DNA of 64,000 nt from an uncultured candidate division Zixibacteria bacterium. Lineage in GTDB: Bacteria; Zixibacteria; MSB-5A5; GN15; FEB-12. The stretch covers positions 1,184,001 to 1,248,000 of the forward strand of contig CAVTJJ010000004.1 in NCBI GenBank assembly GCA_963735035.1. Reading direction: 5' to 3'. Positions within the stretch are counted from its first letter, which is position 1. Each line of letters begins with the position of its first letter. A program made the translations under genes and the position numbers. Shown one piece after another: positions 15,120 through 36,655 of the stretch. The notes below the pieces were generated by a model. That model was not told the origin of the DNA and ran no database searches. It saw nothing but the letters and a program-made list of their open reading frames with translations.

Positions 15120-16241
15120 TTAGCCTTCGATCATCTCGACATTGGCGCGTGGAACGATCGCTTCGGTGTTGTCATCGAACCTGACACCAAGAATACGAGC
15201 CTTCGACTCCGATTCCAGCTTCTGTAGCGGCGACGGGAGATCGGTGACCGTGCCCAAACGACCGAAGTGAGGGTGACGGATCACGCGGATCGGCGAACCG
15301 ATAACCAGTCCGCCCGGTTCCTGTTCGAGAGCATCCGGGGTAATGGCCACACCCGGGGTCGGGATGACCAGTTCCGGTCGAATAACGCCGGCGCGAATCT
15401 GAGTGGCGCCGTTGATGCAGGCCATCTCGCCTTCATGTCGTTTCAAGAGCTCAAACGTCTTGGCGGCCATGTTGATTTGGCCAAAACCTTCGGTGACTAC
15501 CAGCGTGGTCGCGGTGTCTTCGGAGCCGGTAATAGCAACGCCAATGTCATAGCCGAGAAAATCGCGCAGGTCCTTGTCGTCAAATCCGCCGACCACAATG
15601 CCTCGCACGTTGAGCTTGATTGCCTTGCGCAGGGCGCCCGCGGTAACCAGCGATCCGCCGACAATGACTTTACCGGTCATCGATTCGAGCACGAGGTTTT
15701 CGTCCAGAACGACCGTCGGGTCTTTGACTGCGATCTGTATCGGACCGTTCTTTTCGCCGCCGATGCCAAAAATCCCCTGCACGAAACTGGCCATGCACTG
15801 GACTTCGACCCCTTCGGACGGATACACCTGGGTGACCTCGCCCTTCAGATATGCTTTCACCTCGACCGGACTCGGCGCTCCGCGCTGCAGGACCTGGCCT
15901 GTAATCGAAGATATCGATTCGATCGTACCGTCGATAGTAGCGTTGCACTGGTTCTTGAAGATGAAAAGAGTCTTGGAAACCGCCATCAACTCGCCGGCCT
16001 TGATTCGGTCGCCCACTTTCTTGAGCATCACCATTTCGATGTCTTCCGGCGGAATGCCCAGCTTGTTGGCGACGTTTATCGGGACAACACTACCCGGCAG
16101 TTCGGTGCGGGCTACGACATCGTCGGGGTTGACTTGGTCGCCGACTTTTCGAAGGACGTTTCCCTTCAGTGGCAGTATTCTATGTTTTTTGACCAGGAGC
16201 TTTTCTTTGACTTTGAGACCCGGTGTATATGCGTGACCCAT
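15120..16241 (-). CDS. Hypothetical cytoplasmic protein with barrel-sandwich-hybrid motifs and a C-terminal KOW-like motif; partner of the GlmL-like ATPase
   Basis: KVGDQVNPDDVVA and KKVGDRIKAGELMA...ATIDGTIESI hybrid-motif halves; C-terminal GSPIRVIRHPHFGRLGTV; no signal peptide or TM. Confidence 0.75.
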   Translation of the reverse strand: MGHAYTPGLKVKEKLLVKKHRILPLKGNVLRKVGDQVNPDDVVARTELPGSVVPINVANKLGIPPEDIEMVMLKKVGDRIKAGELMAVSKTLFIFKNQCNATIDGTIESISSITGQVLQRGAPSPVEVKAYLKGEVTQVYPSEGVEVQCMASFVQGIFGIGGEKNGPIQIAVKDPTVVLDENLVLESMTGKVIVGGSLVTAGALRKAIKLNVRGIVVGGFDDKDLRDFLGYDIGVAITGSEDTATTLVVTEGFGQINMAAKTFELLKRHEGEMACINGATQIRAGVIRPELVIPTPGVAITPDALEQEPGGLVIGSPIRVIRHPHFGRLGTVTDLPSPLQKLESESKARILGVRFDDNTEAIVPRANVEMIEG

Positions 16242-16244
16242 GGT

Positions 16245-17027
16245 TTAACCCTTTTGCGTGTTCGAGCTGTTAGCCTGTTGTCTCTTCTTCCTCAAGCGTA
16301 CTATCAAGACGAGGAGTATGATGAAGAGGGGCGTTCCGAATATGAGCGGATAGTTGAGGGAGCCTTCGGGCTTCTTTTCAATGTCTGCGACCTTTACCGG
16401 TTCGGCCGTGGTCGCATTCGGAAGCGGCTCGGTTGAGACCGACATAATCATCTCACGGTACAACGGAAGATTAGCTGCATACTTGAATGTGGGTGAATAA
16501 AAATAGAAGTTGGCGATACCCTGCTCGTAGAACGTCATGACCAGAAGATTGATCTTGGTTCCGGAACTGTCGCCGGGGACCTCTGATTCTACCGAAGCAC
16601 GCTTGCCCGCCCGGTCGAAGACGACCGAATCCTTGCAGTATGACCTCAGAAAGACATCGGAGGTGACTTCCTTGATGGGGCGCTTGAATTCCGTAGACAA
16701 GCTGCCGATGACCGAATCGATCTGGTGGGGGGCAAGATTGCCGACCGTATCGACTGTGAGGATGAGGTACTGATCCTCGAAAAGGACCATCGCATTCTTC
16801 TCACAGAAGACGGCCTCGAATTCGACTTTCTGGGCCGTATCGCCGCGTGACAGATAGAACTGGGCGGTGGTGTAATCGAGTTGAGTCCAGGTGTCGGGAT
16901 AAGTAAAATGAAACCGGCCGTTGTAGCTGACAAAAGTCTCGGCCGAGGCCGACACCGTCGCCAGGCACAGCGACAACACTACCAGACTCAGCATCAGTCC
17001 CAACCGTGTTAATCTGATCGAATACAT
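16245..17027 (-). CDS. Exported protein with C-terminal membrane anchor (PsbP-like N-terminus possible)
   Basis: Signal peptide ending ASA, GRFHFTYPDTW, C-terminal hydrophobic helix followed by RLRKKR. Confidence 0.7.
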   Translation of the reverse strand: MYSIRLTRLGLMLSLVVLSLCLATVSASAETFVSYNGRFHFTYPDTWTQLDYTTAQFYLSRGDTAQKVEFEAVFCEKNAMVLFEDQYLILTVDTVGNLAPHQIDSVIGSLSTEFKRPIKEVTSDVFLRSYCKDSVVFDRAGKRASVESEVPGDSSGTKINLLVMTFYEQGIANFYFYSPTFKYAANLPLYREMIMSVSTEPLPNATTAEPVKVADIEKKPEGSLNYPLIFGTPLFIILLVLIVRLRKKRQQANSSNTQKG

Positions 17028-17039
17028 TTAGGTCACTCC

Positions 17040-18899
17040 CTATTTCTGATCCAGCACGCCGGTCGGATAGATGTCCAACTCGGTCATCCACTTCTTCAAT
17101 TGAGCCACGCGATCTTTTTCCGGCAGCGAGGAGAGGTCGAACGGGCGTCCGCGTCCGTCGAGAATGATTCCCACCACACCACCGTGCAGTTCGCGCTCAA
17201 CTTTGTTGCCGGGGCCGGCGCCGACATCGAACCCGCGTTCCGGTTCGAGCACCGCGCGGGCCATCTGAGGCAGGCCATTTTCCTGCAGCCCCAGCTTGAA
17301 CAGTCTCATATCGAGATAGTTCAACGTTCCACTGACAACGCCATCGGGCAGATGGATCTGATACTTCATTATCGGCCCCGGCTTCTTCATTGTCCCAACC
17401 GGAGCGACACAAGTGCCCAGATGAATCAGGCAATCCTTTTCGAATACTTCAGTGGCGGCGCGCGGTTGAACCTCGGTCAGCACACCCAGTTGCGGCATCA
17501 TGAAGATAGAATCCACCGCCAGTCGGGTGACGCCTTCCGGCATGAAAGCATCGATCAACATCAGGCCGGACTGTTGACGGCGCGGCGCGTGAGAGAGCAC
17601 GCCGCCCGAACCGATCAGCATGTCGAGCGTCATCATGTTGACGATCGTTCCACCGGAAGTTGACTGCTCGAAAGCATCGGCGATAGTGCGCTGCTGCTGG
17701 ACACCTTTGAGCACCGTGGCGAAATTCTTGTGCTGAATAAAGGCGAGACGCAGCGCTTCTTTGGCGATGGCCTGTTCGAAAATCAACTCTTCCATCGACT
17801 GCGGAATCGTGGTCGGACGGATCATCTTGTTCTTGACCCGGTTGCGCAGGTCGCGCTCGTTCATCTCGAACGGCACCCAGCGCATGACCATCGGAAGCGT
17901 CGCCTCGGCGAAAACATTCGAAATCGAGTAGGACATGCCCAGGTTGGCCGAGACCGTACGGTTGAAGACGCCGGTCTTGCCGTCCGGACGGAATACCGAG
18001 AAGACGTCAGTCGTAGCGCCGCCGATGTCCACACCCACCGCCTCGATGCCGTACTGGTCGGCGATGGTCTTGATAATCAAACCGACTGCGCCCGGAGTGG
18101 GCATGATCGGGGCGTCGGTCCATTCCATCAGCTTCTTGTAGCCGGGGGCCTGCGCCATGACGTGTTCCATGAAGAGCTCGTGGATTTCTTCGCGGGCCGG
18201 GCCGAGATTTTCCATTTCGAGAACCGGGCGAAGATTGTCGACCGTTCTGAGATCGACCTTGCTTGACAAAGTCTTCTTGACTGCCTCGGCGGCATCTTTG
18301 TTGCCGGCGTAGATAATCGGTAATTTGTATCCGGTGCCCAGGCGTGGCTTGGGATCGGCTGCGGAGACGAGTTCGGCGATTTCAACCACGTGGGTCGTGG
18401 TGCCGCCGTCGATACCGCCTGAAAGAAGGATCATGTCGGGGCGGAGGTGGCGGATGCGTTCGATCTGCTGATGGGGGAGACGCTTGTCATTCGAAGCGAT
18501 GACGTCCATGACGATCGCACCGGCGCCCAGAGCCGCCCGCTCGGCCGATTCGGCGGTCATCGAACGAACCACACCGGCGACCATCATTTGAAGACCGCCT
18601 CCGGCTGATGATGTTGAAATATAGACGTCAGTGCCGATTCCGCCCTTGGCCGGAGATATGAACCGGTTGTTCTCGTCGAGTAACTTGCGTCCCGCCAGCT
18701 CTTCAAGCTCTGCGACCGCATTCAGCACGCCCATGGTTACATCTTCAAACGGGGCTTCCACGGTCGTGGGTGCTTCGCCGCGGGAGATAAGACGGTATTC
18801 GCCGTTCACATACTCGATCAGAATCGCTTTGGTGGTGGTTGATCCGCAATCGGTGGCAACAATTACCTTGATGTCTTCTGGGTTGTCGAACTTAGCCAT
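17040..18899 (-). CDS. GlmL/MutL-like (glutamate mutase accessory family) ASKHA-fold ATPase with C-terminal extension
   Basis: Phosphate-1 ATDCGSTTTKA, SSAGGGL, PDMILLSGGIDGG, IIYAGN, PTPGAV, phosphate-2 VDIGGATTDV, adenosine LIGSGGVLSH. Confidence 0.85.
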   Translation of the reverse strand: MAKFDNPEDIKVIVATDCGSTTTKAILIEYVNGEYRLISRGEAPTTVEAPFEDVTMGVLNAVAELEELAGRKLLDENNRFISPAKGGIGTDVYISTSSAGGGLQMMVAGVVRSMTAESAERAALGAGAIVMDVIASNDKRLPHQQIERIRHLRPDMILLSGGIDGGTTTHVVEIAELVSAADPKPRLGTGYKLPIIYAGNKDAAEAVKKTLSSKVDLRTVDNLRPVLEMENLGPAREEIHELFMEHVMAQAPGYKKLMEWTDAPIMPTPGAVGLIIKTIADQYGIEAVGVDIGGATTDVFSVFRPDGKTGVFNRTVSANLGMSYSISNVFAEATLPMVMRWVPFEMNERDLRNRVKNKMIRPTTIPQSMEELIFEQAIAKEALRLAFIQHKNFATVLKGVQQQRTIADAFEQSTSGGTIVNMMTLDMLIGSGGVLSHAPRRQQSGLMLIDAFMPEGVTRLAVDSIFMMPQLGVLTEVQPRAATEVFEKDCLIHLGTCVAPVGTMKKPGPIMKYQIHLPDGVVSGTLNYLDMRLFKLGLQENGLPQMARAVLEPERGFDVGAGPGNKVERELHGGVVGIILDGRGRPFDLSSLPEKDRVAQLKKWMTELDIYPTGVLDQK

Positions 18900-19394: not shown

Positions 19395-20636
19395 TTGAGT
19401 GACCGTCTCCGACATCCCTTGACCTTACTGGTTGTCCTCGTACTAGTCGCAGTCCTGCCAATCGGCGCGTTACTGGCTCAATCGCCTCAACCGAATACAT
19501 CGACCCAAACTGCATCGTCGAATCTCCCCGTTCTCCGTCCGATCGATAGTCTGATCGGGAGCGATCTACCCAACGACGATGGGGGTGAAGTCAGACTGCG
19601 CTGGGCGATTTCTCCCGATGATGTCAAAGGTGGGGTGGTCACCGGATATCGCGTTCTGAAAGCTGTCGATCCCGACAGTCCTTTTGTTGAAGTCGGCGAC
19701 GTGGCCTCGGGGACAACCCAATTTGACGGTGGTGACATCGAGAACGGCCGACCGTACTTCTTCAAAGTTCGGGTGATGGGATTAGCGACGGGCGAAAATG
19801 GTGTCGTCAATGAGATCTTCACCGATTCGAAAATTGCCGGCCCCGTTATTTCATCGGTGCAGTACTTTCACGTGGGTCGACTGAATGTTGCGGTTGTCAC
19901 CGCCCTGGTGATTTTCCTGATCATCTTCTGGATTCAACGCGCGCGTTCGGGGGCCAAGCTCTACATTCGCAAGATTGCCGGACTGGATGCGGTTGACGAA
20001 GCCATCGGTCGGGCCACCGAGATGGGCAAGAAGGTTATTTACGTACCGGGCATCGATGATATGGACAATCTCATGACCATTTCCTCGATGATCATCCTGG
20101 GTTACGTGGCCGAAATAACCGCCACCTACGATACGTATTTGGAAGTGCCTACCTGCAAATCGATGGTCATGGTGACGGCCAAGGAAGTGGTGAAAGAAGC
20201 CTATACGAAAGTGGGACGGTCCGATTCTTATCATCCCGACCAGGTGCACTATTTAACCGATGATCAATTCGGCTATGCGGCGGCCATTGACGGCATCGTG
20301 GTACGTCAGAAACCGGCTACCATGTTCTATATAGGGTCATTCTATGCAGAATCGCTGATTCTGGCCGAAATCGGCAACGCCGCCGGCGCCATTCAAATTG
20401 CAGGCACGGCCCAGGCCAGCCAATTGCCGTTTTTCGTGACGGCTTGTGACTATACTCTCATCGGCGAGGAGATGTTCGCCGCTTCAGCTTATCTCTCCAA
20501 AGAGCCGAGGCTTCTCGGTTCGCTCAAGGGACAGGACTACGCCAAGGCTCTGATCCTGGCGGCCATACTTGTCGGTCTGATTCTTGAATCCTTTCATCTC
20601 TGGGGTGGTTTCCACAGCCTCTTTACGGTGGTGTAG
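19395..20636 (+). CDS. Module 1 gene A: signal peptide + FN3-like domain + TM + DUF6754-like domain + TM
   Basis: FN3-like LRWAISPDD...GYRV...YFFKV; IRKIAGLDAVDEAIGRATEMG, FYAESL and TLIGEE.FAASAYL shared with two paralogues. The DUF6754 name is recalled, not searched. Confidence 0.8.
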   Translation: MSDRLRHPLTLLVVLVLVAVLPIGALLAQSPQPNTSTQTASSNLPVLRPIDSLIGSDLPNDDGGEVRLRWAISPDDVKGGVVTGYRVLKAVDPDSPFVEVGDVASGTTQFDGGDIENGRPYFFKVRVMGLATGENGVVNEIFTDSKIAGPVISSVQYFHVGRLNVAVVTALVIFLIIFWIQRARSGAKLYIRKIAGLDAVDEAIGRATEMGKKVIYVPGIDDMDNLMTISSMIILGYVAEITATYDTYLEVPTCKSMVMVTAKEVVKEAYTKVGRSDSYHPDQVHYLTDDQFGYAAAIDGIVVRQKPATMFYIGSFYAESLILAEIGNAAGAIQIAGTAQASQLPFFVTACDYTLIGEEMFAASAYLSKEPRLLGSLKGQDYAKALILAAILVGLILESFHLWGGFHSLFTVV

Positions 20637-20638
20637 CA

Positions 20639-21289
20639 ATGCGTAGAACAGTACCCCTGATTATTACCGGAGTCGTAGGCATTGTATTCGTAGTCTCGTA
20701 TTTTTCGCCCCCCCTTACTATTCTCAACGACAAGTTTTCCGACTGGTTCTCGATCGTGGCGGCTTGTTCGATTGTATTGGGCTCGCTAAATCTGGTACTG
20801 ATTTCCACTCAGAAGGTCATTAGTCGCAGAGAAGATTGGTTCTACGCCGGTGTCATCATAGCTTGCTTCCTGGCGATGCTCATATCGGGTCTCTGGGCCG
20901 GCCGTGACTTCGGGGGTGGGAACACCGGAACCCCGTTCGAATGGCTCTATAACTATCTTTACAACCCGCTGTCGTCTACTATGTACGCGATCCTGGCCTT
21001 CTATGTGGCGTCAGCGTCGTACCGTGCGTTCCGCGCCCGTAACATCGAGGCTACCATGCTTCTGGTTGCCGCGTTTCTGGTTATGCTTGGTCGCGTTCCC
21101 ATTGGCGACGTTCTGACCGGATTCCTTCCCGAGGGCTCCCGGATGTCGGATCTGCAGCAATGGATCATGGATTATCCGCAGACGGCCGGACAACGCGCCA
21201 TCATGATCGGCATTGCGCTCGGTATCGTGTCGACCTCACTTCGCGTAATTCTCGGCGTTGAACGTTCCCACCTTGGGGGAGGCGACTAA
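20639..21289 (+). CDS. Module 1 gene B: multi-pass membrane protein
   Basis: About 6 hydrophobic segments; AFYVASASYRAFRARN and AGQRAIMIGI.LG...LR.ILG.ER shared with two paralogues. Confidence 0.8.
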   Translation: MRRTVPLIITGVVGIVFVVSYFSPPLTILNDKFSDWFSIVAACSIVLGSLNLVLISTQKVISRREDWFYAGVIIACFLAMLISGLWAGRDFGGGNTGTPFEWLYNYLYNPLSSTMYAILAFYVASASYRAFRARNIEATMLLVAAFLVMLGRVPIGDVLTGFLPEGSRMSDLQQWIMDYPQTAGQRAIMIGIALGIVSTSLRVILGVERSHLGGGD

Positions 21290-21292
21290 GCC

Positions 21293-22315
21293 ATGAACCG
21301 CAAGGCAATCGAAATAGCGGTGTTGCTGACAGGCTTGATCTTCTGTATCGTCGCGTACATCGGCAAAGAGAGTATCCTCGGGTGGCATAAAGGGTATGTC
21401 TTTTCGTATACGACTTCGGTCATAATAATCCTGCTAATCATGCTCTCTCTGCTCTGGATTCTTATTCGGACCATTCAGGACAAGCCGGTCGGCCGCCGGA
21501 TTGTCTTTCTTTACGTTGGCATCGCCATCACTCTCCCGCTGTTTATGTCGTACGATCAGAAGATCGTAGTGACCGAGAGTACTCAGCAGGTTTACGACGC
21601 TGTTCAGGCGCTTCCGGCCGGGGCGAAAGTCCTGGTATCTTTCGACTACGATCCAGCGTCGTCGCCGGAACTTCAGCCGATGGCGGAAGCGTTTCTGGCC
21701 GAGTGCTTCAAACGTCATTTGAAAGTTATAATGGTGGCCCTCTGGGCGCCGGGCGCACTCCAGGCCAACATTGCTATCGACACGGTCAAGGTTAGACTTG
21801 GCCTTGATTCTACTCAGTTGGTTTACGGTGTGGATTATTGTAACCTGGGTTACCAGGCAGGACGTGAATTCGTGATCGCGCGCATGGGGACCAGTTTTGA
21901 GGCGATGTTTGGTAAGGATGTTCGGGGTACGCCGTATCGCGAGATTCCTCTGGTCAGAAACGTAAGAAATTTCTCCGATATCGACTATTCGTTCAATATC
22001 TCGGCCGGTTTCCCCGGAACCGTGGAATGGGTTCAGGTGGCGGTAACTCGTTTTGCCCTGAAACTCGGTGCCGGCAGCACAGCCGTGCAGGCGCCGCAAG
22101 TCTACCCTTACCTGAGGGGGGGACAGTTACTCGGTCTCCTGGCCGGCATGAACGGCGCTGCTGAATTCGAGAAGCTGGTCGGACTCAAAGCCGAAGCTAC
22201 TACGTACATGCTGGCGCAAACCTTCGCTCACGTCATCGTGATCGCCTTTATCATCATCGGCAACGTGGCCTTCTTCCGAAGTGGGCGCAAGTCGGCTAAG
22301 GGAGGGGCGAAGTAA
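21293..22315 (+). CDS. Module 1 gene C: membrane protein with a large soluble alpha/beta domain
   Basis: N-terminal TMs, DYDP..ELQPM, YGVDY.NLGY, YPY, GAAE and C-terminal TM H...IAFIIIGN shared with two paralogues. Confidence 0.8.
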   Translation: MNRKAIEIAVLLTGLIFCIVAYIGKESILGWHKGYVFSYTTSVIIILLIMLSLLWILIRTIQDKPVGRRIVFLYVGIAITLPLFMSYDQKIVVTESTQQVYDAVQALPAGAKVLVSFDYDPASSPELQPMAEAFLAECFKRHLKVIMVALWAPGALQANIAIDTVKVRLGLDSTQLVYGVDYCNLGYQAGREFVIARMGTSFEAMFGKDVRGTPYREIPLVRNVRNFSDIDYSFNISAGFPGTVEWVQVAVTRFALKLGAGSTAVQAPQVYPYLRGGQLLGLLAGMNGAAEFEKLVGLKAEATTYMLAQTFAHVIVIAFIIIGNVAFFRSGRKSAKGGAK

Positions 22316-22316
22316 C

Positions 22317-22940
22317 ATGGATCATCTCGGACTCTGGGTAGCAGGCTTATTGACGCTCGGAATTTACTCATTCTTGTATCGTGACAACCCGTGGTACAAG
22401 TTCTCGGAGGCGGTGTTTGTCGGGATCTCAGCCGGATACTGGGTCGTCTACGAATTCTGGAACAATTTTGTCAACAAGTTCTGGGATGGAAGGAATCAGG
22501 ATCCCTGGCTCTGGGTAGGCGCCATTCTTGGTCTGATGATGCTCATGCGGCTGGTTCCTAAGATCGGTTGGATTTCCCGCTGGCCGCTCGCGTTTATCAT
22601 CGGTGCAACCTCGGGACTCTGGCTCATGCTCTATCTTACGACCAACTGCATGTCGCAGGTGGAAGCGACTATTTTCCCGTTGTTTGGCATTCAAAATGAA
22701 GCTTCAATGATCACGATCTTCAGCAGCATCGTACTCATTGTCGGTACGGTCAGCGGCGTCATATATTTCTTCTTCTCCAAAGCTCACACCGGTGCGTTCG
22801 GGGCGACTGCGCGGGTAGGCATATGGACGATCATGATTACGTTCGGAGCGATGTTCGCGCTGACAATCATGAATCGTATGTCGCTTCTGATCGGCCGCAC
22901 TTCGTTCATTTTTGGCCAGTGGCTGGGGCTAATCAAGTAA
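22317..22940 (+). CDS. Module 1 gene D: multi-pass membrane protein
   Basis: SFLYRDNPWYKF.E, WISRWPLA and YFFFSK.HTG motifs; ATG at 22317 after GGAGGGG. Confidence 0.8.
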   Translation: MDHLGLWVAGLLTLGIYSFLYRDNPWYKFSEAVFVGISAGYWVVYEFWNNFVNKFWDGRNQDPWLWVGAILGLMMLMRLVPKIGWISRWPLAFIIGATSGLWLMLYLTTNCMSQVEATIFPLFGIQNEASMITIFSSIVLIVGTVSGVIYFFFSKAHTGAFGATARVGIWTIMITFGAMFALTIMNRMSLLIGRTSFIFGQWLGLIK

Positions 22941-24211
22941 TGGCATGTCGGCGAGGCACTCAGGGTGGTGGAGCTCGCAGCCCGTACAATAAATTCTGTC
23001 TTCTGGTTCTGCTTTCAATCTTCGCGTTCGTAGTCGGTGTCACAGCTCAAGAACAATCAGCCGGCATGGTGATCGAGAAGGAGACCGGCGCCGAGGCACC
23101 CGCTCCGGTCACTTCACTCATTGCCGAAGACTTCAAATACGACGACGGCGAAAACCTGGCCCTCACCTGGATACCGTCAATAGATGACCGGCCCGGCTCG
23201 GACCGTGTGACCGGGTACCAGGTTTACCAGATCGCCAACAGCGGCCCGCCCGTCAAGATCGCCGAGCTATTGCCGGGCGCGAATTCCTACCGCGCCCAGA
23301 ATCTGTTTCGCGATACAGTCTATCAATTCAATGTCAAGACGTTGGCGGAGGGGGCTTCCACAGAATCCGTTCGCACGGAAGCCATTTCGCCCCGGCGTGA
23401 GTGGATCGACTGGAACCTCTGGAACCTGATGCTGATCACCCTCGTGATAGCGGGCGCCATTCTGGTATTCATCGAAACCGCCAAGAGAGGGAAGAAGCTG
23501 TTCGTGCGAAGGATCGCCGGGCTCGAAGCTGTAGACGAGGCCATCGGACGCGCCACCGAGATGGGGCGGCCGATCCTCTTCATACCCGGCATTCAGGACA
23601 TGGATGATGTCCAGACTCTCGCCGCTCTGACAATCCTGGGCCGGGTGGCCGAGCATGTCGCAACTTACGACATCAAGCTTCGGATGCCGGTATCCCGGTC
23701 GCTGGTGATGACTGCCGCGCGCGAGACGATTAAGACCAGCTTCTCCGCGGCCGGACGTCCCGACGCCTATAACGAAGATATGGTCAGCTACGTGACCGAC
23801 GAGCAGTTCGGATACGTGGCGGCGGTGAGTGGCATCATGGTGCGTGAGAAACCGGCCACCGTGTTTCTGCTCGGCGCGTTCATGGCGGAGTCTTTGATTC
23901 TGGCCGAGACCGGCAATTCGGTCGGTGCGATTCAGATCGCGGGCACCGCTCGCCCGGCTCAGCTCCCGTTCTTTGTAGCCGCCTGCGACTTCACACTGAT
24001 CGGCGAAGAATTGTTTGCGGCATCGGCGTACTTGTCCGGCGAACCGCGGGCGCTGGGTTCACTCAAAGGTCAGGATGTCGGCAAGGCAATCGGCATGGCC
24101 GCGATTGTTCTCGGCACGGCCGCGGTCACACTGTATGCCATGACCGATGCGGTCTGGCTCAAGACTGTGGCGGACTGGTTCCAGGCATTCTTCACGGTGG
24201 CATCGGATTAG
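22940..24211 (+). CDS. Module 2 gene A: FN3-like + DUF6754-like membrane protein
   Basis: ATG overlaps the previous stop (TAATG); LTWIPSIDD...GYQV; RRIAGLEAVDEAIGRATEMG. Confidence 0.8.
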   Translation: MACRRGTQGGGARSPYNKFCLLVLLSIFAFVVGVTAQEQSAGMVIEKETGAEAPAPVTSLIAEDFKYDDGENLALTWIPSIDDRPGSDRVTGYQVYQIANSGPPVKIAELLPGANSYRAQNLFRDTVYQFNVKTLAEGASTESVRTEAISPRREWIDWNLWNLMLITLVIAGAILVFIETAKRGKKLFVRRIAGLEAVDEAIGRATEMGRPILFIPGIQDMDDVQTLAALTILGRVAEHVATYDIKLRMPVSRSLVMTAARETIKTSFSAAGRPDAYNEDMVSYVTDEQFGYVAAVSGIMVREKPATVFLLGAFMAESLILAETGNSVGAIQIAGTARPAQLPFFVAACDFTLIGEELFAASAYLSGEPRALGSLKGQDVGKAIGMAAIVLGTAAVTLYAMTDAVWLKTVADWFQAFFTVASD

Positions 24212-24214
24212 ACT

Positions 24215-24895
24215 ATGAGACGCGAGATCCCGCTGGCCATAACCATTTTCGTCGGACTACTGGCGATTGTCTCATTCTTCAGTCCTCCCATGGAAGGTCT
24301 GGGCGAAGATTTCACGCTGTTCTTTGATATCATTGCCGTCTTCGCGTTCTTCCTCGGTGGTGGCAATCTCGTTCGCATACATGCCGACAAGTTGATTCGG
24401 AGAAAGAAAGAGTGGGGCTACTCGGTAGTCACGCTGGTCGGCTTCCTGGGGATGCTGGCCGCGGGTCTATTCAAGATCGGCAATCCGGGAGACATATCAA
24501 CTTCGGTAACAGCCCCCGGCTCTTTGTTCGCCACCCTCTATTTCAATTTGAATTTACCGCTGGGAGCGACCATGTACGCACTGCTGGCGTTCTATGTGGC
24601 CTCGGCGTCGTATCGGGCGTTTCGCGCTAAGAATCGTGAAGCCACTGTGCTGCTGGTAGCAGCGTTTGTCATATTGCTCGGCAGCACGCCGTTTGGCACG
24701 ATGCTCACTTCCTGGATACCGTCATCATTCAGTTGGCTGCAGATTCCGAATATGGCGGTCTGGATTATGAGCTCGCCCAACCTGGCCGGACAGCGGGCTA
24801 TCATGATCGGTATCGGTCTCGGTGTAGTGTCGATGTCACTGCGTCTAATTCTAGGCATTGAGCGCACTTATCTTGGAGGGGACGAACGTGGGTGA
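24215..24895 (+). CDS. Module 2 gene B: multi-pass membrane protein
   Basis: AFYVASASYRAFRAKN and AGQRAIMIGIGLG motifs. Confidence 0.8.
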   Translation: MRREIPLAITIFVGLLAIVSFFSPPMEGLGEDFTLFFDIIAVFAFFLGGGNLVRIHADKLIRRKKEWGYSVVTLVGFLGMLAAGLFKIGNPGDISTSVTAPGSLFATLYFNLNLPLGATMYALLAFYVASASYRAFRAKNREATVLLVAAFVILLGSTPFGTMLTSWIPSSFSWLQIPNMAVWIMSSPNLAGQRAIMIGIGLGVVSMSLRLILGIERTYLGGDERG

Positions 24896-25805
24896 TTACC
24901 GCGTCATAATTGTCCTGCTCCTGATTGGTGGGGGACTGGTCTGGCTGTTGGTGCGGGCGCTGCGCGGCAAGGAAGTTGACCGCCGGTTGGTGTTCGCGTT
25001 CATTTTCATCTCTGTAGCAGCCCCGCTGCTTCTAACGATTACGTTCGAGATGAAACCGACCCCGGTAGTCAAGGCGCTCTATGACCGGATCGATACTCTT
25101 CCGCCAGGATCACGCATTCTCCTGTCGTACGATTTTGATCCGCCCATGGCCCCCGAAGTACAACCCATGGCCGATGTGGTCAGCCGCCATTGTCTGGCGC
25201 GGGGACATAAAGTAGTCTTTATGACACTCTGGGCGACTGGGCAGGCGCAGTTTCTCGCGACCCTTCAGGATGTGATTCGCCCCGACTTCCCCGATATGAA
25301 GGATGGCGTCGACTACGTTGATCTCGGCTACAAGGCCGGCAACGAGGGTGTGCTGAACGTCATCCGCACCGATTTCAAGAAGATGTTTCCGACCGATGTC
25401 AACACGGTGCCGTGGGACAGCATTCCCATTCTCGACGGGATTCGATCCTGCTCCGATTTTGATTTGATCGTCTCGCTGGGCGGCGGCAAGCCGGGTGTCA
25501 AAGAATGGGTCCTGTTCGTGGGTGATCCGTGCGGCGTTCCGACCGCCGGTGGCGTGGCGGCAGTGGTGGCCCCGATGCTCTACCCATACTATCCGACCCA
25601 GATGTGTGGTCTGCTCGGTGGAATCAAGGGAGCGGCCGAATACGAGAATTATCTGCGTGACAATTATCCGCGTTTCGCCAAAATGAAAACTCCGGCGATG
25701 GTCATGATGGGGCCTCAGACTGTGGCGCACGTAGTAATCCTGGCTTTCATTGTCATTGGTAATGTTCTTTTCTTCGTCCAGCGTCGCAAAGAGGTGAAAC
25801 GATGA
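24888..25805 (+). CDS. Module 2 gene C: membrane protein with soluble alpha/beta domain
   Basis: GTG start after GGAGGGG; DFDP..PEVQPM, DGVDYVDLGY, YPYY, GAAEYE and H..ILAFIVIGN motifs. Confidence 0.8.
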   Translation: MGDYRVIIVLLLIGGGLVWLLVRALRGKEVDRRLVFAFIFISVAAPLLLTITFEMKPTPVVKALYDRIDTLPPGSRILLSYDFDPPMAPEVQPMADVVSRHCLARGHKVVFMTLWATGQAQFLATLQDVIRPDFPDMKDGVDYVDLGYKAGNEGVLNVIRTDFKKMFPTDVNTVPWDSIPILDGIRSCSDFDLIVSLGGGKPGVKEWVLFVGDPCGVPTAGGVAAVVAPMLYPYYPTQMCGLLGGIKGAAEYENYLRDNYPRFAKMKTPAMVMMGPQTVAHVVILAFIVIGNVLFFVQRRKEVKR

Positions 25806-26635
25806 GCCGCCTGAGTATCATTGTCCTCGCGGCGGTCTGCCTGCTCTTTGCGGTGAGCTGGGTGGTTAGAGCGGGTGTGACCGAAGGCGACACGGCGGTG
25901 CGCGATGCGTTTCTCGTGACCCTGTCGGCCTTTATGACCCTCGCGATCATGTCGTTCATGTACAAGGACAATCCGTATTACAAATTCGCCGAGCACCTGT
26001 TCGTGGGGATTTCGGCCGCCTACTGGATGTGTGTCGGGTTCTGGTCAACGATTGTTGGCAACCTGGTCCCGCGGGTGTCCGAGAGTCTGTCGGCCTTCTT
26101 CAGAGTGCCGTACTCAGGTGGCGGGCTGGATTTCGGTGCGATCTACCTGCCGTATCGCTATTTCTACATGATCCCGGTCATCCTGGGGATCTTGTTACTG
26201 ATGCGCCTGGTGCCGAAGGCGGGCTGGCTCTCGCGCTGGCCACTGGCGTTCATCGTCGGCACGTTTGCCGGTCTTAATTTGATACGGTATCTCCAGTCAG
26301 ATTTTGTCAATCAGATCTCCGCGACATTCATACCGCTGGTTACCGACTGGCATGGGTTCGGAGCCTTCTTCTCAGGATTGTCACTATCGTTTGACGGCCA
26401 ACTGGTCGCTATTTTGACGAACCTCGTGATTTTTCTTGGTGTATTTTGCGGATTGATATATTTCTATTTCTCGAAGGAACATACTGGATGGTTCGGAAAT
26501 GCGTCGCGCTTTGGTATCTGGATTCTCATGATCACTTTCGGCGCGTCTTTCGGCTATACGGTTATGGGACGCATATCGCTCCTGGTGGGGCGGCTGACGT
26601 TTCTGTTCCAGGACTGGTTAGGAATTAGAGGCTAA
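25802..26635 (+). CDS. Module 2 gene D: multi-pass membrane protein
   Basis: SFMYKDNPYYKFAEH, WLSRWPLA and YFYFSKEHTG motifs; ATGA overlap with gene C. Confidence 0.8.
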   Translation: MSRLSIIVLAAVCLLFAVSWVVRAGVTEGDTAVRDAFLVTLSAFMTLAIMSFMYKDNPYYKFAEHLFVGISAAYWMCVGFWSTIVGNLVPRVSESLSAFFRVPYSGGGLDFGAIYLPYRYFYMIPVILGILLLMRLVPKAGWLSRWPLAFIVGTFAGLNLIRYLQSDFVNQISATFIPLVTDWHGFGAFFSGLSLSFDGQLVAILTNLVIFLGVFCGLIYFYFSKEHTGWFGNASRFGIWILMITFGASFGYTVMGRISLLVGRLTFLFQDWLGIRG

Positions 26636-28254: not shown

Positions 28255-29070
28255 ATGAAACAACAAGTGCCACGTCTAATAGTACTCGTATTTGGAGCGT
28301 TCCTCCTATTTCAATTCTTTGTTCCCCATGAATCGTCTGAGTGGATCTACGAATTCCTGCTCGATTGGACCATCATCATAGGTGTGTTCGCGCTTGCGGT
28401 AGGTATCTGGTCGATCTTCAACGTTCACGTCGAGAAGATTCGGACCAAGAAATTCGGCTGGAAGTACTCATACGTAACGCTGACCGGATTCGTTGCTATG
28501 GTGCTGTTCGGCATGACCAGCCAGAACGGTCAGGAATGGGGCTGGTTCTTTCCGTTCATAGCCGCGGCGATCCTGACGGTACTTATGATTGTGCAGGCCA
28601 GTGCCTCCAAGGGGAACGCCGGACCGTTTATCGGTGCCGCCTTGCTGTTCGTCGTCGCAGCGGCGGTCATTGCCTGGAGAGACAATACCTGGAGTTTCTA
28701 CTTCCAGACGCCGGTGCCGCTCCAATCCTTCATGTTCCGGAGGATGTTTGATAACGTTCTGATTTCGCTTCACGCCACGACGTTTTCGCTGCTGGCGTTC
28801 TTCATAGCGTCGGCGGCGTACCGATCTTTCCGGGCCCGCAACGTTATGGCCAGTCTGTTGCTCATCGCGGCGCTGGTAGTGATGTCCCGGTTCAACCCGT
28901 ATCTCGAACCACTCTTCGGCGAGAAAGTAAATCGGCTGTCGAACTGGCTGATGAACGTCCCCAACCTGGCGGCTCAGAGAGCGGTCATCATGGGGATCGG
29001 GCTGGGTATGGTGGCGACAGCGCTCAAGGTGGTGCTGGGTATTGAACGCAACTATATGGGCAAAGGATAA
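28255..29070 (+). CDS. Module 3 gene B: multi-pass membrane protein (about two extra TMs)
   Basis: AFFIASAAYRSFRARN and AAQRAVIMGIGLG motifs; AGGAGG RBS. Confidence 0.8.
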   Translation: MKQQVPRLIVLVFGAFLLFQFFVPHESSEWIYEFLLDWTIIIGVFALAVGIWSIFNVHVEKIRTKKFGWKYSYVTLTGFVAMVLFGMTSQNGQEWGWFFPFIAAAILTVLMIVQASASKGNAGPFIGAALLFVVAAAVIAWRDNTWSFYFQTPVPLQSFMFRRMFDNVLISLHATTFSLLAFFIASAAYRSFRARNVMASLLLIAALVVMSRFNPYLEPLFGEKVNRLSNWLMNVPNLAAQRAVIMGIGLGMVATALKVVLGIERNYMGKG

Positions 29071-29081
29071 GGAGTCCGGTC

Positions 29082-29969
29082 ATGAATATATTCGATAGAT
29101 TGATGCAGCTTGACCGGCGTTGGGTGTTCCTCTTTCTGGCGATTGTGTGTGTAATCGCCTACGCTTCCCAATTTGAGGTGCCCATTCTGGTTGAGCCCGA
29201 AGTGAAGGCTATTTTCACGTTCATCGATACCTTGCCCAAGGGGTCGGTGGTGTTTGTTCCAATGGATTACGATCCCGGCTCGATGGCGGAGCTGCATCCC
29301 ATGACTTATGCCATTGTCGAGCAATGCTGGCGCAAAGAGTTGAAGGTACTGATTACAGCGTTATCTCAGAACGGACCCGGCATGGCCGATCAGGCCATTC
29401 GGGAAATCGTCGACTCGCTGAAAATGCCCCGTACATACAATGGTGTGTCCTACCCGGCGCGGGAAATTGTCAACGGTGTTGACTACGTCTTCCTGGGCTA
29501 CAAGCCGTATCCGGCCATTGTTATCCTTGGCATGGGGCAGAATTTCCGCTTGCCGTTCCCGCTTGATTATTACGGGACGCCAATCGATTCGCTTCCAATG
29601 ATGCGAACGATTCAGAACTACAATGACATCGCCTGTGCGATCAATATCTCGGGCACGAACGCCACCGACTATTGGATATCGTACGGTCAGGGCAAGTTCG
29701 GATTCCCGCTGGCGATAGGTGTCACCGGCGTTTCGACGGCCCAGTATTATCCCTACTATGGCTCGCGGCAGATCTTCGGCATCATGGGTGGAATGCTGGG
29801 CGCGGCGGAGTATGAGGATCTATCCGATAATCCGGGCAACGCCAAGGATGCCATGCGCGTGCAGCTTTCGGCGCATCTGGTCATTATCGCCTTTGTCGTT
29901 ATGGGCAACATCGCGTACTTCGTGACCTTGCGAAAACGGAAACGCGGTCAAACGGAAGGAAGGAGGTAA
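29082..29969 (+). CDS. Module 3 gene C: membrane protein with soluble alpha/beta domain
   Basis: DYDP..AELHPM, NGVDYVFLGY, YYPYY, GAAEYE and H..IIAFVVMGN motifs. Confidence 0.8.
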   Translation: MNIFDRLMQLDRRWVFLFLAIVCVIAYASQFEVPILVEPEVKAIFTFIDTLPKGSVVFVPMDYDPGSMAELHPMTYAIVEQCWRKELKVLITALSQNGPGMADQAIREIVDSLKMPRTYNGVSYPAREIVNGVDYVFLGYKPYPAIVILGMGQNFRLPFPLDYYGTPIDSLPMMRTIQNYNDIACAINISGTNATDYWISYGQGKFGFPLAIGVTGVSTAQYYPYYGSRQIFGIMGGMLGAAEYEDLSDNPGNAKDAMRVQLSAHLVIIAFVVMGNIAYFVTLRKRKRGQTEGRR

Positions 29970-29973
29970 CGCC

Positions 29974-30807
29974 GTGGATTACACGACTTTCCTGTGGACA
30001 ACTGCCGGAGCCTTCCTGACGCTCTGCATCTTCTCGTTCTTGTACAAAGACAATCCTTTCTATAAGTTCGCCGAACATCTCTTCGCTGGACTCTCGGCCG
30101 GGTACTTCGCCATGATTCTATGGCACAACGGCCTGATTCCCAAGCTGATGTATGATCGCTTGGACGATGGCAACTGGTATTTCCTCTGGCTGGATTCGTC
30201 CAAGCCCTGGTTCCTGATTCCGGCGCTGCTAGGGGTTCTGATGTGGACCCGCTTCTCGCAGAAATACCAGTGGATATCGCGGTTCCCGCTCGCGATGTAT
30301 ATCGGCATCGGCGCCGGCATGGCGATACCTCTGGAGATGCGCGCCCGAGTGAACGAACAATTGTCGGCCATGATGCGCACGGCTCCATGGAATCAAGCTT
30401 ATTGGGACCACTTCTTCGGTAACGGCGGGTTCAACCTGCTTGACACGATGTCCGGTCTCTCGCAGTTGATCGTCTTCATAGGCGCCATCTGTGCTCTGGT
30501 GTACTTCTTCTTCTCGAAGGCCCATACCGGGGTCGTTGGGGGCATGGCCAAGTTCGGTATCTGGATATTGATGATCGGTTTTGGTGCGTCATTCGGTTTC
30601 ACCGTGATGGCGCGTGTATCGTTGTTCATCAACCGGATGCAGTTCCTTGACCAGCGGTGGATCAAGACCGCGACTGCTGAGGCCGCGCCATGGTGGTACC
30701 TGGGGATTCTACTCCTCGTGGTGACGGTGGCTGTGGTCTACGCGGTCTGGGAGATTGTTGCCTTCATGGGTCGCAAGAAGAACGCGGGCGCCAATCAAGC
30801 CGGCTGA
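29974..30807 (+). CDS. Module 3 gene D: multi-pass membrane protein
   Basis: SFLYKDNPFYKFAEH, WISRFPLA and YFFFSKAHTG motifs; GTG start after AGGAGG. Confidence 0.8.
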   Translation: MDYTTFLWTTAGAFLTLCIFSFLYKDNPFYKFAEHLFAGLSAGYFAMILWHNGLIPKLMYDRLDDGNWYFLWLDSSKPWFLIPALLGVLMWTRFSQKYQWISRFPLAMYIGIGAGMAIPLEMRARVNEQLSAMMRTAPWNQAYWDHFFGNGGFNLLDTMSGLSQLIVFIGAICALVYFFFSKAHTGVVGGMAKFGIWILMIGFGASFGFTVMARVSLFINRMQFLDQRWIKTATAEAAPWWYLGILLLVVTVAVVYAVWEIVAFMGRKKNAGANQAG

Positions 30808-30833: not shown

Positions 30834-30870
30834 GAAACCCTGCCTTTTCAGAGGCGGGGTTTCTTTTTTT
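30834..30870 (+). terminator. Rho-independent terminator ending the 12-gene operon
   Basis: GAAACCCTGCC-TTTTCAGA-GGCGGGGTTTC followed by T7. Confidence 0.85.
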
Positions 30871-31631: not shown

Positions 31632-31715
31632 ATTGCATTTCGGCCCGATCGCCTGTTACTTGCCGAAGCTAAATTGTGAATATAGCATGAGTTAGTGATA
31701 TTTACAGGGGGCGCT

Positions 31716-34544: not shown

Positions 34545-36655
34545 GGCACGAGTTAGACGCAATCTTCAGGCCCCGATCACTGGCGGTTATCGGGGCCACT
34601 CCGAAGAAAAGGACAATCGGACGCGAGACGCTGCATAACATCTTTTCCGCCGAGTATCAGGGAAAGATCTTTCCGGTCAATCCCAACTACGAAGTTATCA
34701 ACTCCGTCAAGTGCTACTCCACCATTCTTGATGTTCCCGACGCGGTCGATCTGGCCGTGATTATCGTCCCCAAGCAGCACGTGAAAGAAGTCGTGCGGCA
34801 GTGCGGCGAGAAGGGTGTCAAAGGGCTGGTGGTCATATCGTCCGGGTTCTCCGAAGTGGGCGCCGAAGGCAAAGCGCTCGAGGCGCAGGTGGTCGAGGTC
34901 GTTCGCAATTACGGTATGCGGTTGGTCGGGCCGAACTGTTTCGGTGTGGTCAACGCCGATCCCGAAATCAGTCTCAACGCGACCTTCGGCAAGACCTTCC
35001 CCAAGCATGGCAACGTTGGATTCATAACCCAGTCCGGCGCCATGGGCGAGGCGGTTATGAATCAGGCCGCCGAACTCGGTATCGGATTCTCCAAGATCGT
35101 ATCGATCGGCAACAAGGCGGATGTCTCGTCCAACGACATACTTACCTATTTCCGCGATGACAAGCAGACTCAGATTATCCTGCTCTATCTCGAGAACTTC
35201 GGTAATCCGCTGAACTTTACGCGTATCGCCACGGAAGTCTCGCGAATCAAACCGGTCGTAGCGGTGAAATCAGGCCGGACCAAGCTTGGCGCTAAGGCGG
35301 CGTCATCGCACACCGGTGCCCTGGCCGGGCTCGATGTCGGTGTTGATGCGTTGTTCGATCAGACCGGCATTATGCGTGTAGATACGACCGAAGAGTTGTT
35401 CGATGTGGCTGCGCTGCTCTCGCGGCAGCCGATCCCCAAGGGGAAACGAGTGGTGGTTGTCACCAACGCCGGCGGACCCGGCATTCTGGCCACCGACACG
35501 CTGATTGCCAACGGGCTCGAAATGCCCGATCTGGCGCCGGAGACTATCAAAGAACTCCGGAAGTTCACTTCCGCCGACGCTTCCTATTCCAACCCGATGG
35601 ACATGGTGGCGGGGGCAGGACCCAACGAATATCTCAAGACACTCAATGTCGTCACGAAAGATAAGCGCTACGATGCGATCCTGACGATTTTCATAGCCAC
35701 GGTGACCGTCGATGAAATGGAAGTGGCGCGAAAGATTCATGAAGGGCTGCAGGGGTGCGACAAGACGCTCCTGGCCTGTCTCATGGCGGCGGGCGAAAGA
35801 CGGGCCGGGATCGAGTTCCTGAACTCGAACGGCATTCCGACCTACATCTTCCCCGAGGCGGCGGCCAAAGCACTTGTGATCGTAGAGCGGTATCGTCAGT
35901 GGCTCGAACGCCCAATGGGCAAACCGAAGACCTTCCCGGTGGACACCGCCCGCGTGCGTGAGATCATTACGCGCAGCCTCAAGAGCGGCAAGAAGGCGAT
36001 TGTCGGCGAAGACGCTATGGAGATTCTGGACGCCTACGGCATTCAGGCGGCGGGATACAAATTTGCCTTCACTCCGAAAGAGGCGGTCACGGTCGCGAAA
36101 GAACTCGGCTATCCCGTAGTGATGAAAATCAACACGCCGCCCATTCTCCACAAAACCGAAGTCGGCGGGGTGATGGTCGATCTGCGGTCGGACGCCGAAG
36201 TGAAGAAAGCCTGGAATGAGCTTCGTTCCCGCGTGGGCGAGATCAAGAAGGGCGAGAAGTTTTCGGTGGTCATGCAGCAGATGATCACCGGTGCGGTCGA
36301 GACGGTGATCGGCATGACGACTGATCCGTCGTTCGGTCCTCTGATCATGTTCGGTCTGGGTGGCATCTACGTGGAAGTCATGAAGGACGTTGCTTTCCGG
36401 ATCAACCCGCTGACGCCGCAGAAGGCCCGGCGCATGATCGAATCGCTCAAGTCGTATCCGCTGTTGACCGGGTTTAGAGGAGCGCCGCCGGTTGATCTCG
36501 AAATTGTCGAGGAGACCCTGTTGAGAGTCTCGCAATTGGTCAAGGATTTCGATTGTCTGTCAGAAATTGACATAAATCCCTTTATCGTTTCGGCCGAGCG
36601 GGAGCGTTGCATCGCGGTGGACGCCCGATTTATCGTGCGCGAACCCTTGACGTGA
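34541..36655 (+). CDS. Acetate/acyl-CoA ligase (ADP-forming), fused alpha-beta
   Basis: CoA-binding N-domain, GPNC.G, SHTG phospho-His, NAGG, NPMD, ATP-grasp HKTEVGGV and DINP; no GNAT domain. Confidence 0.9.
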   Translation: MRHELDAIFRPRSLAVIGATPKKRTIGRETLHNIFSAEYQGKIFPVNPNYEVINSVKCYSTILDVPDAVDLAVIIVPKQHVKEVVRQCGEKGVKGLVVISSGFSEVGAEGKALEAQVVEVVRNYGMRLVGPNCFGVVNADPEISLNATFGKTFPKHGNVGFITQSGAMGEAVMNQAAELGIGFSKIVSIGNKADVSSNDILTYFRDDKQTQIILLYLENFGNPLNFTRIATEVSRIKPVVAVKSGRTKLGAKAASSHTGALAGLDVGVDALFDQTGIMRVDTTEELFDVAALLSRQPIPKGKRVVVVTNAGGPGILATDTLIANGLEMPDLAPETIKELRKFTSADASYSNPMDMVAGAGPNEYLKTLNVVTKDKRYDAILTIFIATVTVDEMEVARKIHEGLQGCDKTLLACLMAAGERRAGIEFLNSNGIPTYIFPEAAAKALVIVERYRQWLERPMGKPKTFPVDTARVREIITRSLKSGKKAIVGEDAMEILDAYGIQAAGYKFAFTPKEAVTVAKELGYPVVMKINTPPILHKTEVGGVMVDLRSDAEVKKAWNELRSRVGEIKKGEKFSVVMQQMITGAVETVIGMTTDPSFGPLIMFGLGGIYVEVMKDVAFRINPLTPQKARRMIESLKSYPLLTGFRGAPPVDLEIVEETLLRVSQLVKDFDCLSEIDINPFIVSAERERCIAVDARFIVREPLT

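What the first reader, a model, noticed from the sequence alone, without database searches (positions are those of the whole stretch)
19395..22315. Genes A and C look like homologous domains placed on opposite sides of the membrane
Seen in the sequence: the C-terminal halves align by eye. A1 reads QIAGTAQASQLPFFVTACDYTLIGEEMFAASAYL...SLKGQDYAKALILAAILVG; C1 reads LGAGSTAVQAPQVYPYLRGGQLLGLLAGMNGAAEFEKL...YMLAQTFAHVIVIAFIIIG. Both have a soluble alpha/beta domain between two TMs. By the positive-inside rule, A's domain follows an exported FN3 domain, one TM and a basic stretch (QRARSGAKLYIRK), so it is cytoplasmic. C's domain follows RR-TM and its last TM ends in a basic tail (RKRKR in C3), so it is periplasmic. 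Inference: an inverted-topology pseudo-symmetric pair, as in many transporters and channels, but with matching soluble caps on both faces.
Basis: inference. Interest (0 to 1): 0.75.

Follow-up and report, generated by a model that had tools for sequence, protein, structure and literature searches.

The report
Two-faced subunits of DUF6754 membrane module
Two neighbouring membrane proteins are built alike and very probably hold similar-looking domains on opposite faces of the inner membrane, but no test shows that they are duplicates of one gene; they belong to a widespread, unstudied four-protein membrane machine.

Summary
The quoted sequences are there. AlphaFold2 models (pLDDT about 90) give A1 and C1 the same layout: membrane helix, an alpha/beta domain of six strands alternating with helices, membrane helix.

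The by-eye alignment is no better than chance (z 0.08). BLASTP, deep profile-profile comparison (probability 2.2%, membrane helix only), cross HMM searches and language-model features all find no A-C similarity.

Opposite orientation is well supported as a prediction. Lys/Arg bias puts A's domain inside (144 of 146 sequences) and C's domain outside (247 of 271). The exported FN3 domain on A, a CARDB insert in one C relative and three C-D fusions with one extra membrane helix fit this.

Context: A-B-C-D is a fixed four-gene module, three tandem copies here and five in the genome. It lies next to single-copy genes for a GlmL-like actin-fold protein and a 373-aa protein. The module occurs in all 201 sampled genomes of the phylum and in many candidate phyla, and no paper holds the term DUF6754. 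This scan reached the same verdict earlier on other genomes.

The parts
19395..20636 (+). A1, 413 aa: signal peptide, FN3 (residues ~44-158; 19524-19868), TM1 (160-184; 19872-19946), cytoplasmic DUF6754 alpha/beta domain (188-370; 19956-20504), TM2 (371-399; 20505-20591)
20639..21289 (+). B1, 216 aa, polytopic, about 6 TM, N-terminus predicted inside
   Evidence: No Pfam or NCBIfam family over cut-off. Family hydropathy and Lys/Arg profile. Follows A in the listed loci.
21293..22315 (+). C1, 340 aa: two extra N-terminal TMs, conserved Arg-Arg (68-69; 21494-21499), anchor TM (68-88; 21494-21556), periplasmic alpha/beta domain (92-298; 21566-22186), C-terminal TM (301-337; 22193-22303), basic tail
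   Evidence: No Pfam or NCBIfam family. AF2 pLDDT 89.9. Lys/Arg bias. RR motif counts. VIA matches.
22317..22940 (+). D1, 207 aa, polytopic, N-terminus predicted outside (ATG at 22317; the ORF listing starts the frame at GTG 22281)
   Evidence: D-family HMM hits.
22940..24211 (+). A2 (likely start ATG 22940, overlapping the D1 stop; the ORF listing starts the frame at 22823)
   Evidence: 44% identical to A1.
24215..24895 (+). B2
24858..25805 (+). C2 (start codon uncertain; overlaps the B2 end)
   Evidence: 38% identical to C1.
25802..26635 (+). D2, with an extra N-terminal hydrophobic segment
26641..28242 (+). A3, 533 aa, larger exported N-terminal part
28255..29070 (+). B3
29082..29969 (+). 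C3, 295 aa, minimal form: RR, TM, domain, TM, RKRKR tail
29974..30807 (+). D3
30834..30863 (+). Terminator-like hairpin (13-pair stem, T run) just after D3; a possible end of the 12-gene array
   Evidence: This is a consensus scan only, and the number of such sites in the region was at the shuffle expectation.
17040..18899 (-). GlmL/MutL-like actin-fold (ASKHA) protein, 619 aa, divergent from A1, single copy in the genome
   Evidence: PF13941, E 5.9e-128. NCBIfam GlmL 237 bits, below the 475 cut-off. Single copy. Linked to ABCD in other phyla.
16245..17027 (-). 260-aa protein with an N-terminal hydrophobic segment and a C-terminal TM; kept between the two soluble-module genes in Zixibacteria-type loci only
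15120..16241 (-). 373-aa strongly conserved protein ('P374'), single copy, with a weak sub-threshold biotin/lipoyl-like N-terminal part
   Evidence: E 0.0017, below cut-off. 197 of 201 genomes, mostly one match each. Directly upstream of A on the same strand in other phyla.

Best explanation
A and C are two different subunits of one conserved four-subunit inner-membrane module (A, B, C, D). Both are built as 'membrane helix, six-stranded Rossmann-like domain, membrane helix', but they are inserted in opposite senses. A's very conserved DUF6754 domain lies in the cytoplasm, behind an exported FN3 domain. C's more variable domain lies in the periplasm, held by an Arg-Arg signal-anchor helix and a tail-anchor helix. 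B and D are polytopic subunits of about six helices each. The resemblance of A and C is one of architecture and general fold. It is not detectable common descent, so I read them as either unrelated Rossmann-type domains or duplicates diverged beyond recognition. Inferred, not shown: the module is a modular transport or uptake unit. On this reading the variable periplasmic domain of C, and FN3 where present, face the substrate. B and D form the membrane path. A's invariant cytoplasmic domain couples several paralogous modules (five here) to one shared soluble pair, the GlmL-like actin-fold ATPase-type protein and the 373-aa protein.
Confidence: 0.6

Rival explanations
1. One reading: A and C descend from one TM-Rossmann-TM gene by duplication, and one copy inverted its membrane orientation. 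This gives a pseudo-symmetric pair with matching caps on both faces, and sequence similarity has since been lost.
Against: No sequence, profile or language-model signal in seven tests. The only hhalign match pairs A's first TM with C's last TM, which have the same sense. B and D, which a whole-module duplication would also pair, score 0.5%. Six-stranded Rossmann-like domains are among the commonest folds, so a shared fold class is weak evidence.
Confidence: 0.2
2. Both soluble domains lie on the same, cytoplasmic side; C's predicted topology is wrong and there is no two-faced arrangement.
For: C's best structural neighbours are mostly cytoplasmic nucleotide-binding or cofactor-type domains. 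One C relative has a HEAT-repeat insert, HEAT_2 E 4.2e-64.
Against: Lys/Arg bias in 247 of 271 and 208 of 246 sequences. A CARDB insert in another relative. Arg-Arg is near-invariant before the anchor helix (R68 in 266 and R69 in 252 of 272). Three of three C-D fusions carry one extra hydrophobic segment, and D2 has an added N-terminal hydrophobic segment. About a fifth of the top 50 VIA-wide rows for C are lobes of periplasmic solute- or sugar-binding proteins.
Confidence: 0.08
3. A and C are merely neighbouring membrane proteins that do not work in one complex, and the resemblance is trivial.
For: No experiment exists, and the one complex prediction I ran gave no verdict (see Tried and rejected).
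Against: Fixed A-B-C-D order across many candidate phyla. Overlapping or nearly abutting genes. Natural C-D fusions. The four families have equal copy number, five each, in this genome.
Confidence: 0.05

Closest known systems
Pfam DUF6754 (PF20539) proteins and their four-gene cassette
   Same: A1-A3 are clear members. The cassette and its partner genes are the same as in many candidate phyla.
   Different: The family is only catalogued. No function, structure or paper was found: the full-text search for 'DUF6754' gave 0 papers. C, B and D have no family at all.
Inverted-topology homologous pairs in membrane complexes (RnfA/RnfE, NqrD/NqrE, dual-topology EmrE-type proteins; recalled, not tested here)
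   Same: Two similarly built subunits encoded in one operon and predicted to sit in opposite senses.
   Different: In the known pairs the homology is plain in sequence and lies in the membrane part. Here no homology is detectable, and the look-alike parts are soluble domains that would lie on opposite faces.
Sir2/sirtuin Rossmann core, proton-translocating transhydrogenase domain III, CODH/ACDS epsilon subunit (grouped, from memory of SCOP, as DHS-like NAD/FAD-binding domains)
GlmL/MutL accessory proteins of glutamate mutase (PF13941)
   Same: The neighbouring 619-aa protein matches PF13941 at E 5.9e-128.
   Different: It scores far below NCBIfam's GlmL cut-off, 237 against 475 bits. It is about 160 residues longer than that model. 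It is linked to membrane cassettes, and no mutase gene was seen beside it in the window.
Tat-dependent signal-anchored and tail-anchored proteins (Rieske protein, hydrogenase small subunits; recalled)
   Same: C has a near-invariant D-R-R-x-[IV]-F-[LIV] before its anchor helix and a C-terminal TM. The genome encodes TatC.
   Different: The anchor helix is strongly hydrophobic (mean Kyte-Doolittle 2.24), which is more Sec/YidC-like. Tat dependence is untested.

Membership tests
Pfam DUF6754 (PF20539): subunit A | Score over the family's gathering cut-off (27 bits) across the domain | tested here: met
   A1: 384.2 bits, E 2.9e-115, profile positions 3-250 of 257. Five matches over the cut-off in the genome.
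Pfam DUF6754 (PF20539): subunit C | Any match of C-family proteins to the DUF6754 profile, or of DUF6754 profiles to C | tested here: not met
   C1 has no family at E <= 0.1. DUF6754 is not among the 25 of 34 families shown for 123 C members at E <= 1. The A HMM has no C hit at E <= 1e-3 in the genome. hhalign gives 2.2%.
Fibronectin type III domain (A, N-terminal part) | Sequence and fold match to FN3 | tested here: met
Inverted-topology homologous pair | Detectable homology between the two partners | tested here: not met
   The best hhalign probability under any setting is 3.9%, on a TM helix only.
Inverted-topology homologous pair | Same fold with the same strand order and connectivity | tested here: inconclusive
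   Same order of elements and both match sirtuin-type cores. No model-to-model superposition was possible. The DUF6754 domain was never searched alone, because FN3 filled the lists.
Inverted-topology homologous pair | Opposite orientation in the membrane | tested here: met
   By prediction only: Lys/Arg bias across 146 A and 272 C sequences, supported by FN3, the CARDB insert and the fusions.
Sir2 family | Sequence membership and an NAD-binding or catalytic motif | tested here: not met
   No Sir2 Pfam match for A1 at E <= 0.1. The resemblance is of fold only. Motifs were not examined residue by residue.
GlmL (methylaspartate mutase accessory protein): neighbouring 619-aa protein | Score over NCBIfam's equivalog cut-off | tested here: not met
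   237 bits against a cut-off of 475. It is over the cut-off for Pfam PF13941 only.
Tat substrates (C) | Twin-arginine motif before a moderately hydrophobic h-region, with Tat machinery present | tested here: inconclusive
   RR-x-h-h in 246 of 271 sequences. TatC is present. The helix is very hydrophobic. Export route not testable here.

The most novel reading that the evidence does not exclude
A and C are ancient duplicates that inverted relative to each other. Together with B and D they would form the pseudo-symmetric core of a new class of transporter. It would have Rossmann-type caps on both membrane faces, be driven from inside by a shared actin-fold (GlmL-like) ATPase docking on A, and have its outer cap (C) exported already folded through Tat.
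Probability: 0.12. Interest if true: 0.85.

Novelty: categorically new. Interest (0 to 1): 0.55.

Why it matters
The module is present in every sampled genome of this phylum, usually in about five copies, and in many candidate phyla without cultured members. Its C subunit alone has 4815 sequence clusters at 50% identity. Yet three of its four proteins have no family, none has a solved relative by sequence, and no paper holds the term DUF6754. A membrane unit with look-alike soluble domains on both faces and an actin-fold partner fits no transporter or respiratory complex that I know. Settling its orientation and fold would give the first handle on what may be a major uptake or energy-coupling system of these bacteria.

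Tried and rejected
(1) Complex prediction with A 155-413, B1, D1 and C 62-340, C as partner: the verdict was 'no answer'. C scored 0.82, 0.63 and 0.65, and the two controls with C replaced scored 0.00. The control with A replaced by an unrelated protein scored 0.72, so the score is not specific to A. I do not count this for or against binding.
(2) Fold searches with the whole A1 model were filled by FN3 matches, and only one row (Sir2) covers the DUF6754 domain. Foldseek's Nir2 C-terminal domain hits (E 4e-6, but TM 0.22-0.35 and rmsd about 27) were not used.
(3) ESM Atlas: C finds only its own unnamed family. A's domain with DUF6754 clusters left out finds no usable hit. No structure search was possible there.
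(4) PDB sequence searches with the C, A and 373-aa profiles found nothing for the alpha/beta domains. The best E was 1.1 for C and 0.021 for the 373-aa protein.
(5) The search for related loci with the 123-row C alignment failed for lack of a conserved stretch. It worked with 14 rows.
(6) B-D homology, which a whole-module duplication would predict, scored hhalign 0.5%.
(7) An Rnf/Nqr-like reading was considered from memory, because of the barrel-sandwich-like start of the 373-aa protein and the TM-anchored domains. It was dropped, since there is no Pfam or NCBIfam match to any Rnf/Nqr family.
(8) Literature: 'DUF6754' gave 0 papers. Two broader searches returned only unrelated papers in the listings, and I read none of them.
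Full report
WHAT IS THERE. The finding covers the first three genes of a 12-gene array on the plus strand. The array is three tandem copies of a four-gene cassette: A1 19395-20636, B1 20639-21289, C1 21293-22315, D1 22317-22940; A2 22940-24211, B2, C2, D2; A3, B3, C3, D3 ending at 30807. Genes abut by 1-12 bases or overlap, and a strong terminator-like hairpin follows D3 at 30834-30863 (a consensus scan only). The paralogues are 43-44% (A) and 36-38% (C) identical. Close relatives carry names of Zixibacteria-type metagenome bins.

THE OBSERVATION. The quoted peptides are in A1, C1 and C3. A1 matches Pfam DUF6754 at E 2.9e-115. C1 matches no Pfam or NCBIfam family.

AlphaFold2 with family alignments gave confident models (pLDDT 91.4; pLDDT 89.9).
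- A1: signal-peptide helix, FN3 sandwich (53-152), TM 160-184, then helix-strand alternation with six strands (195-368), then TM 371-399.
- C1: two extra N-terminal TMs, anchor TM 68-83, then helix-strand alternation with six strands (95-296), then TM 301-337.

So both proteins do hold an alpha/beta domain between two TM helices.

IS THE SIMILARITY MORE THAN CHANCE? No.
- BLASTP finds only TM fragments, best E 0.97.
That is z 0.08, and 468 of 1000 shuffles reach it. With the TM included z is 1.74, and for the whole soluble domains z is -1.66.
- hhalign on the three paralogues of each family gives 0.7%.
- For deep profiles I used 145 A sequences and 272 C sequences, taken from the window, from 115 fetched loci and from 150 representatives. 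hhalign then gives 2.2%, E 0.022, over 23 columns. Those columns pair A's first TM plus basic stretch with C's last TM plus basic tail. The controls are A-D 3.0%, A-B 0.4%, C-D 0.6%, C-B 0.2% and B-D 0.5%.
- Adding the modelled secondary structure, global mode or a low mact gave 1.3-3.9%.
- Family HMMs find five A and five C genes in the genome and no cross hit at E <= 1e-3.
- With all filters off, the soluble-domain A HMM ranks the C proteins 122nd to 1196th of 4262 ORFs. The C HMM ranks A at 64, 187 and 415, with two not reported.
- DUF6754 is not among the 25 of 34 Pfam families shown for 123 C members.
- The language-model search from A's domain, with DUF6754 clusters left out, gave no usable hit.
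- Caveat: the A family is very conserved (Neff 2.6), which limits profile reach.

ORIENTATION.
- In A, Lys/Arg are enriched after TM1 (mean 4.5 against 1.8; 144 of 146 sequences) and before TM2 (137 of 145). The domain is therefore cytoplasmic.
- In C, Lys/Arg are enriched before the anchor TM (3.6 against 1.5; 247 of 271) and after the last TM (208 of 246). The domain is therefore periplasmic.

Independent hints agree.
- A's N-terminal part is a signal peptide plus FN3.
- One C relative carries a CARDB domain inserted in the soluble domain, E 1.1e-6.
- Three representatives are C-D fusions. Both HMMs match at E 1e-93 or better, and each fusion has exactly one extra hydrophobic segment between C's last TM and D's first. 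This fits C's tail lying inside and D's N-terminus outside.
- The residues before C's anchor helix form a near-invariant motif [ILV]-D-R-R-x-[IV]-F-[LIV]: R68 in 266, R69 in 252 and F/Y72 in 269 of 272 sequences.

Against this, one relative has a HEAT-repeat insert at the same place. All of this is prediction.

FOLD. For C the best solved neighbours cover the whole domain.

Both domains are therefore Rossmann-like, and both align to sirtuin-type cores. From memory of SCOP, Sir2, transhydrogenase dIII and the ACDS epsilon subunit are grouped together as DHS-like NAD/FAD-binding domains. This is compatible with one shared fold but does not show it.

CONTEXT.
- DUF6754 is found in 201 of 201 sampled genomes of the phylum, with 2-10 matches each.
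- This genome has five complete ABCD cassettes, two of them with an FN3-less A.
- The C profile finds 4815 clusters at 50% identity at E <= 1e-3.
- In genome contigs, 467 of 610 candidate stretches encode relatives. The best 80 lie in bins named Zixibacteria, Latescibacterota, Eisenbacteria, Fermentibacteria, TA06, WOR-3, Stahlbacteria, Hydrothermota, Sumerlaeia and others.
- Gene order is A, B, C, D in the window and in the loci listed. Three loci show doubled letters, which I did not examine.
- Upstream, divergent in this window, lie a GlmL/MutL-like actin-fold protein (17040-18899; PF13941 at E 5.9e-128, but below NCBIfam's GlmL cut-off), a 260-aa membrane-anchored protein, and a 373-aa protein of extreme conservation (15120-16241).
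- In other phyla the order is GlmL-like, 373-aa, A, B, C, D on one strand. Of 46 loci with more than 4.2 kb upstream, 26 show one or both of these genes.
- Both genes are single-copy here. The 373-aa gene is in 197 of 201 genomes, mostly as one match.
- Downstream in some phyla are a lipoate-protein-ligase-like gene, a TonB-dependent-receptor-like gene and ExbB.

HOW IT PROBABLY WORKS (inference). Several diverged membrane modules stand against one soluble pair. A's cytoplasmic domain is almost invariant, while C's periplasmic domain is more variable and tolerates inserts. TonB-type neighbours occur in some phyla. Together these suggest a modular uptake or transport system: C (and FN3) face the substrate, B and D form the path, and A couples to the shared actin-fold protein. 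No step of this is shown. The complex prediction gave no verdict (see Tried and rejected).

COMPARISON AND NOVELTY. A is a member of DUF6754, a family that is only catalogued. 'DUF6754' occurs in 0 papers of the library. Known inverted-topology pairs (RnfA/E, NqrD/E, EmrE-type; recalled) differ, because their homology is evident and lies within the membrane. I know of no described complex with look-alike soluble domains on both faces.

Earlier notes of this scan on other genomes describe the same module. Three of them (e1-5213559, e1-5640888, e1-5241787) reached the same verdict on A and C, so this is a repeat finding on new DNA.
- the family-wide orientation counts;
- the fusion and insert evidence;
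- the Arg-Arg motif;
- the Sir2-type match for A's domain;
- the rank-based null for cross-family similarity.

VERDICT.

Noticed in passing
window 21494-21499 (C1 R68-R69) and the same position in C2, C3 and 272 family members: Near-invariant D-R-R-x-[IV]-F-[LIV] just before C's anchor helix, which resembles a twin-arginine (Tat) motif. The genome encodes TatC (G000 C4:1482198-1482818). If C is a Tat substrate, its domain would fold, perhaps with a cofactor, before export.
   Followed up: partly
proteins P0149, P0183, P0237 (C-D fusions); P0122 (two C domains in tandem); P0150 (CARDB insert); P0215 (HEAT-repeat insert): Natural fusions and inserts in the C family. The inserts sit in the loop before the third strand. 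The fusions add one hydrophobic segment between C and D.
   Followed up: partly
G000 C4:446213-449216 (minus strand) and C6:659332-662271 (plus strand): Two further complete ABCD cassettes in the same genome, whose A subunits (293 and 299 aa open frames) lack the FN3 domain.
   Followed up: partly
window 15120-18899, minus strand: Single-copy genes for a GlmL-like actin-fold protein, a 260-aa protein and a 373-aa protein, divergent from the cassette array. In other phyla the first and third lie directly upstream of A on the same strand. The 373-aa protein has many invariant motifs (for example TEGFG and GATQIRAGV.RPE) and no family or solved relative.
   Followed up: partly
loci L074-L113 (several candidate phyla), downstream of D: A lipoate-protein-ligase-like gene, a TonB-dependent-receptor-like gene (CarboxypepD_reg plus Plug) and ExbB recur downstream of the cassette. 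In this genome the ligase-like and receptor-like genes lie together about 54 kb upstream of the array (C4:1144552-1149033).
   Followed up: no
window 31695-36655, plus strand: A 949-aa frame that reads by eye like pyruvate phosphate dikinase and a 704-aa frame that reads like ADP-forming acetyl-CoA synthetase follow the array after the terminator-like hairpin. Neither was scanned against a family library, and they are probably unrelated to the module.
   Followed up: no
window 22823-22940 and 22281-22317: the ORF listing starts A2 and D1 at upstream GTG/ATG codons inside the preceding genes. The likely starts are ATG 22940 (overlapping the D1 stop) and ATG 22317 (one base after the C1 stop), which suggests translational coupling.
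   Followed up: yes
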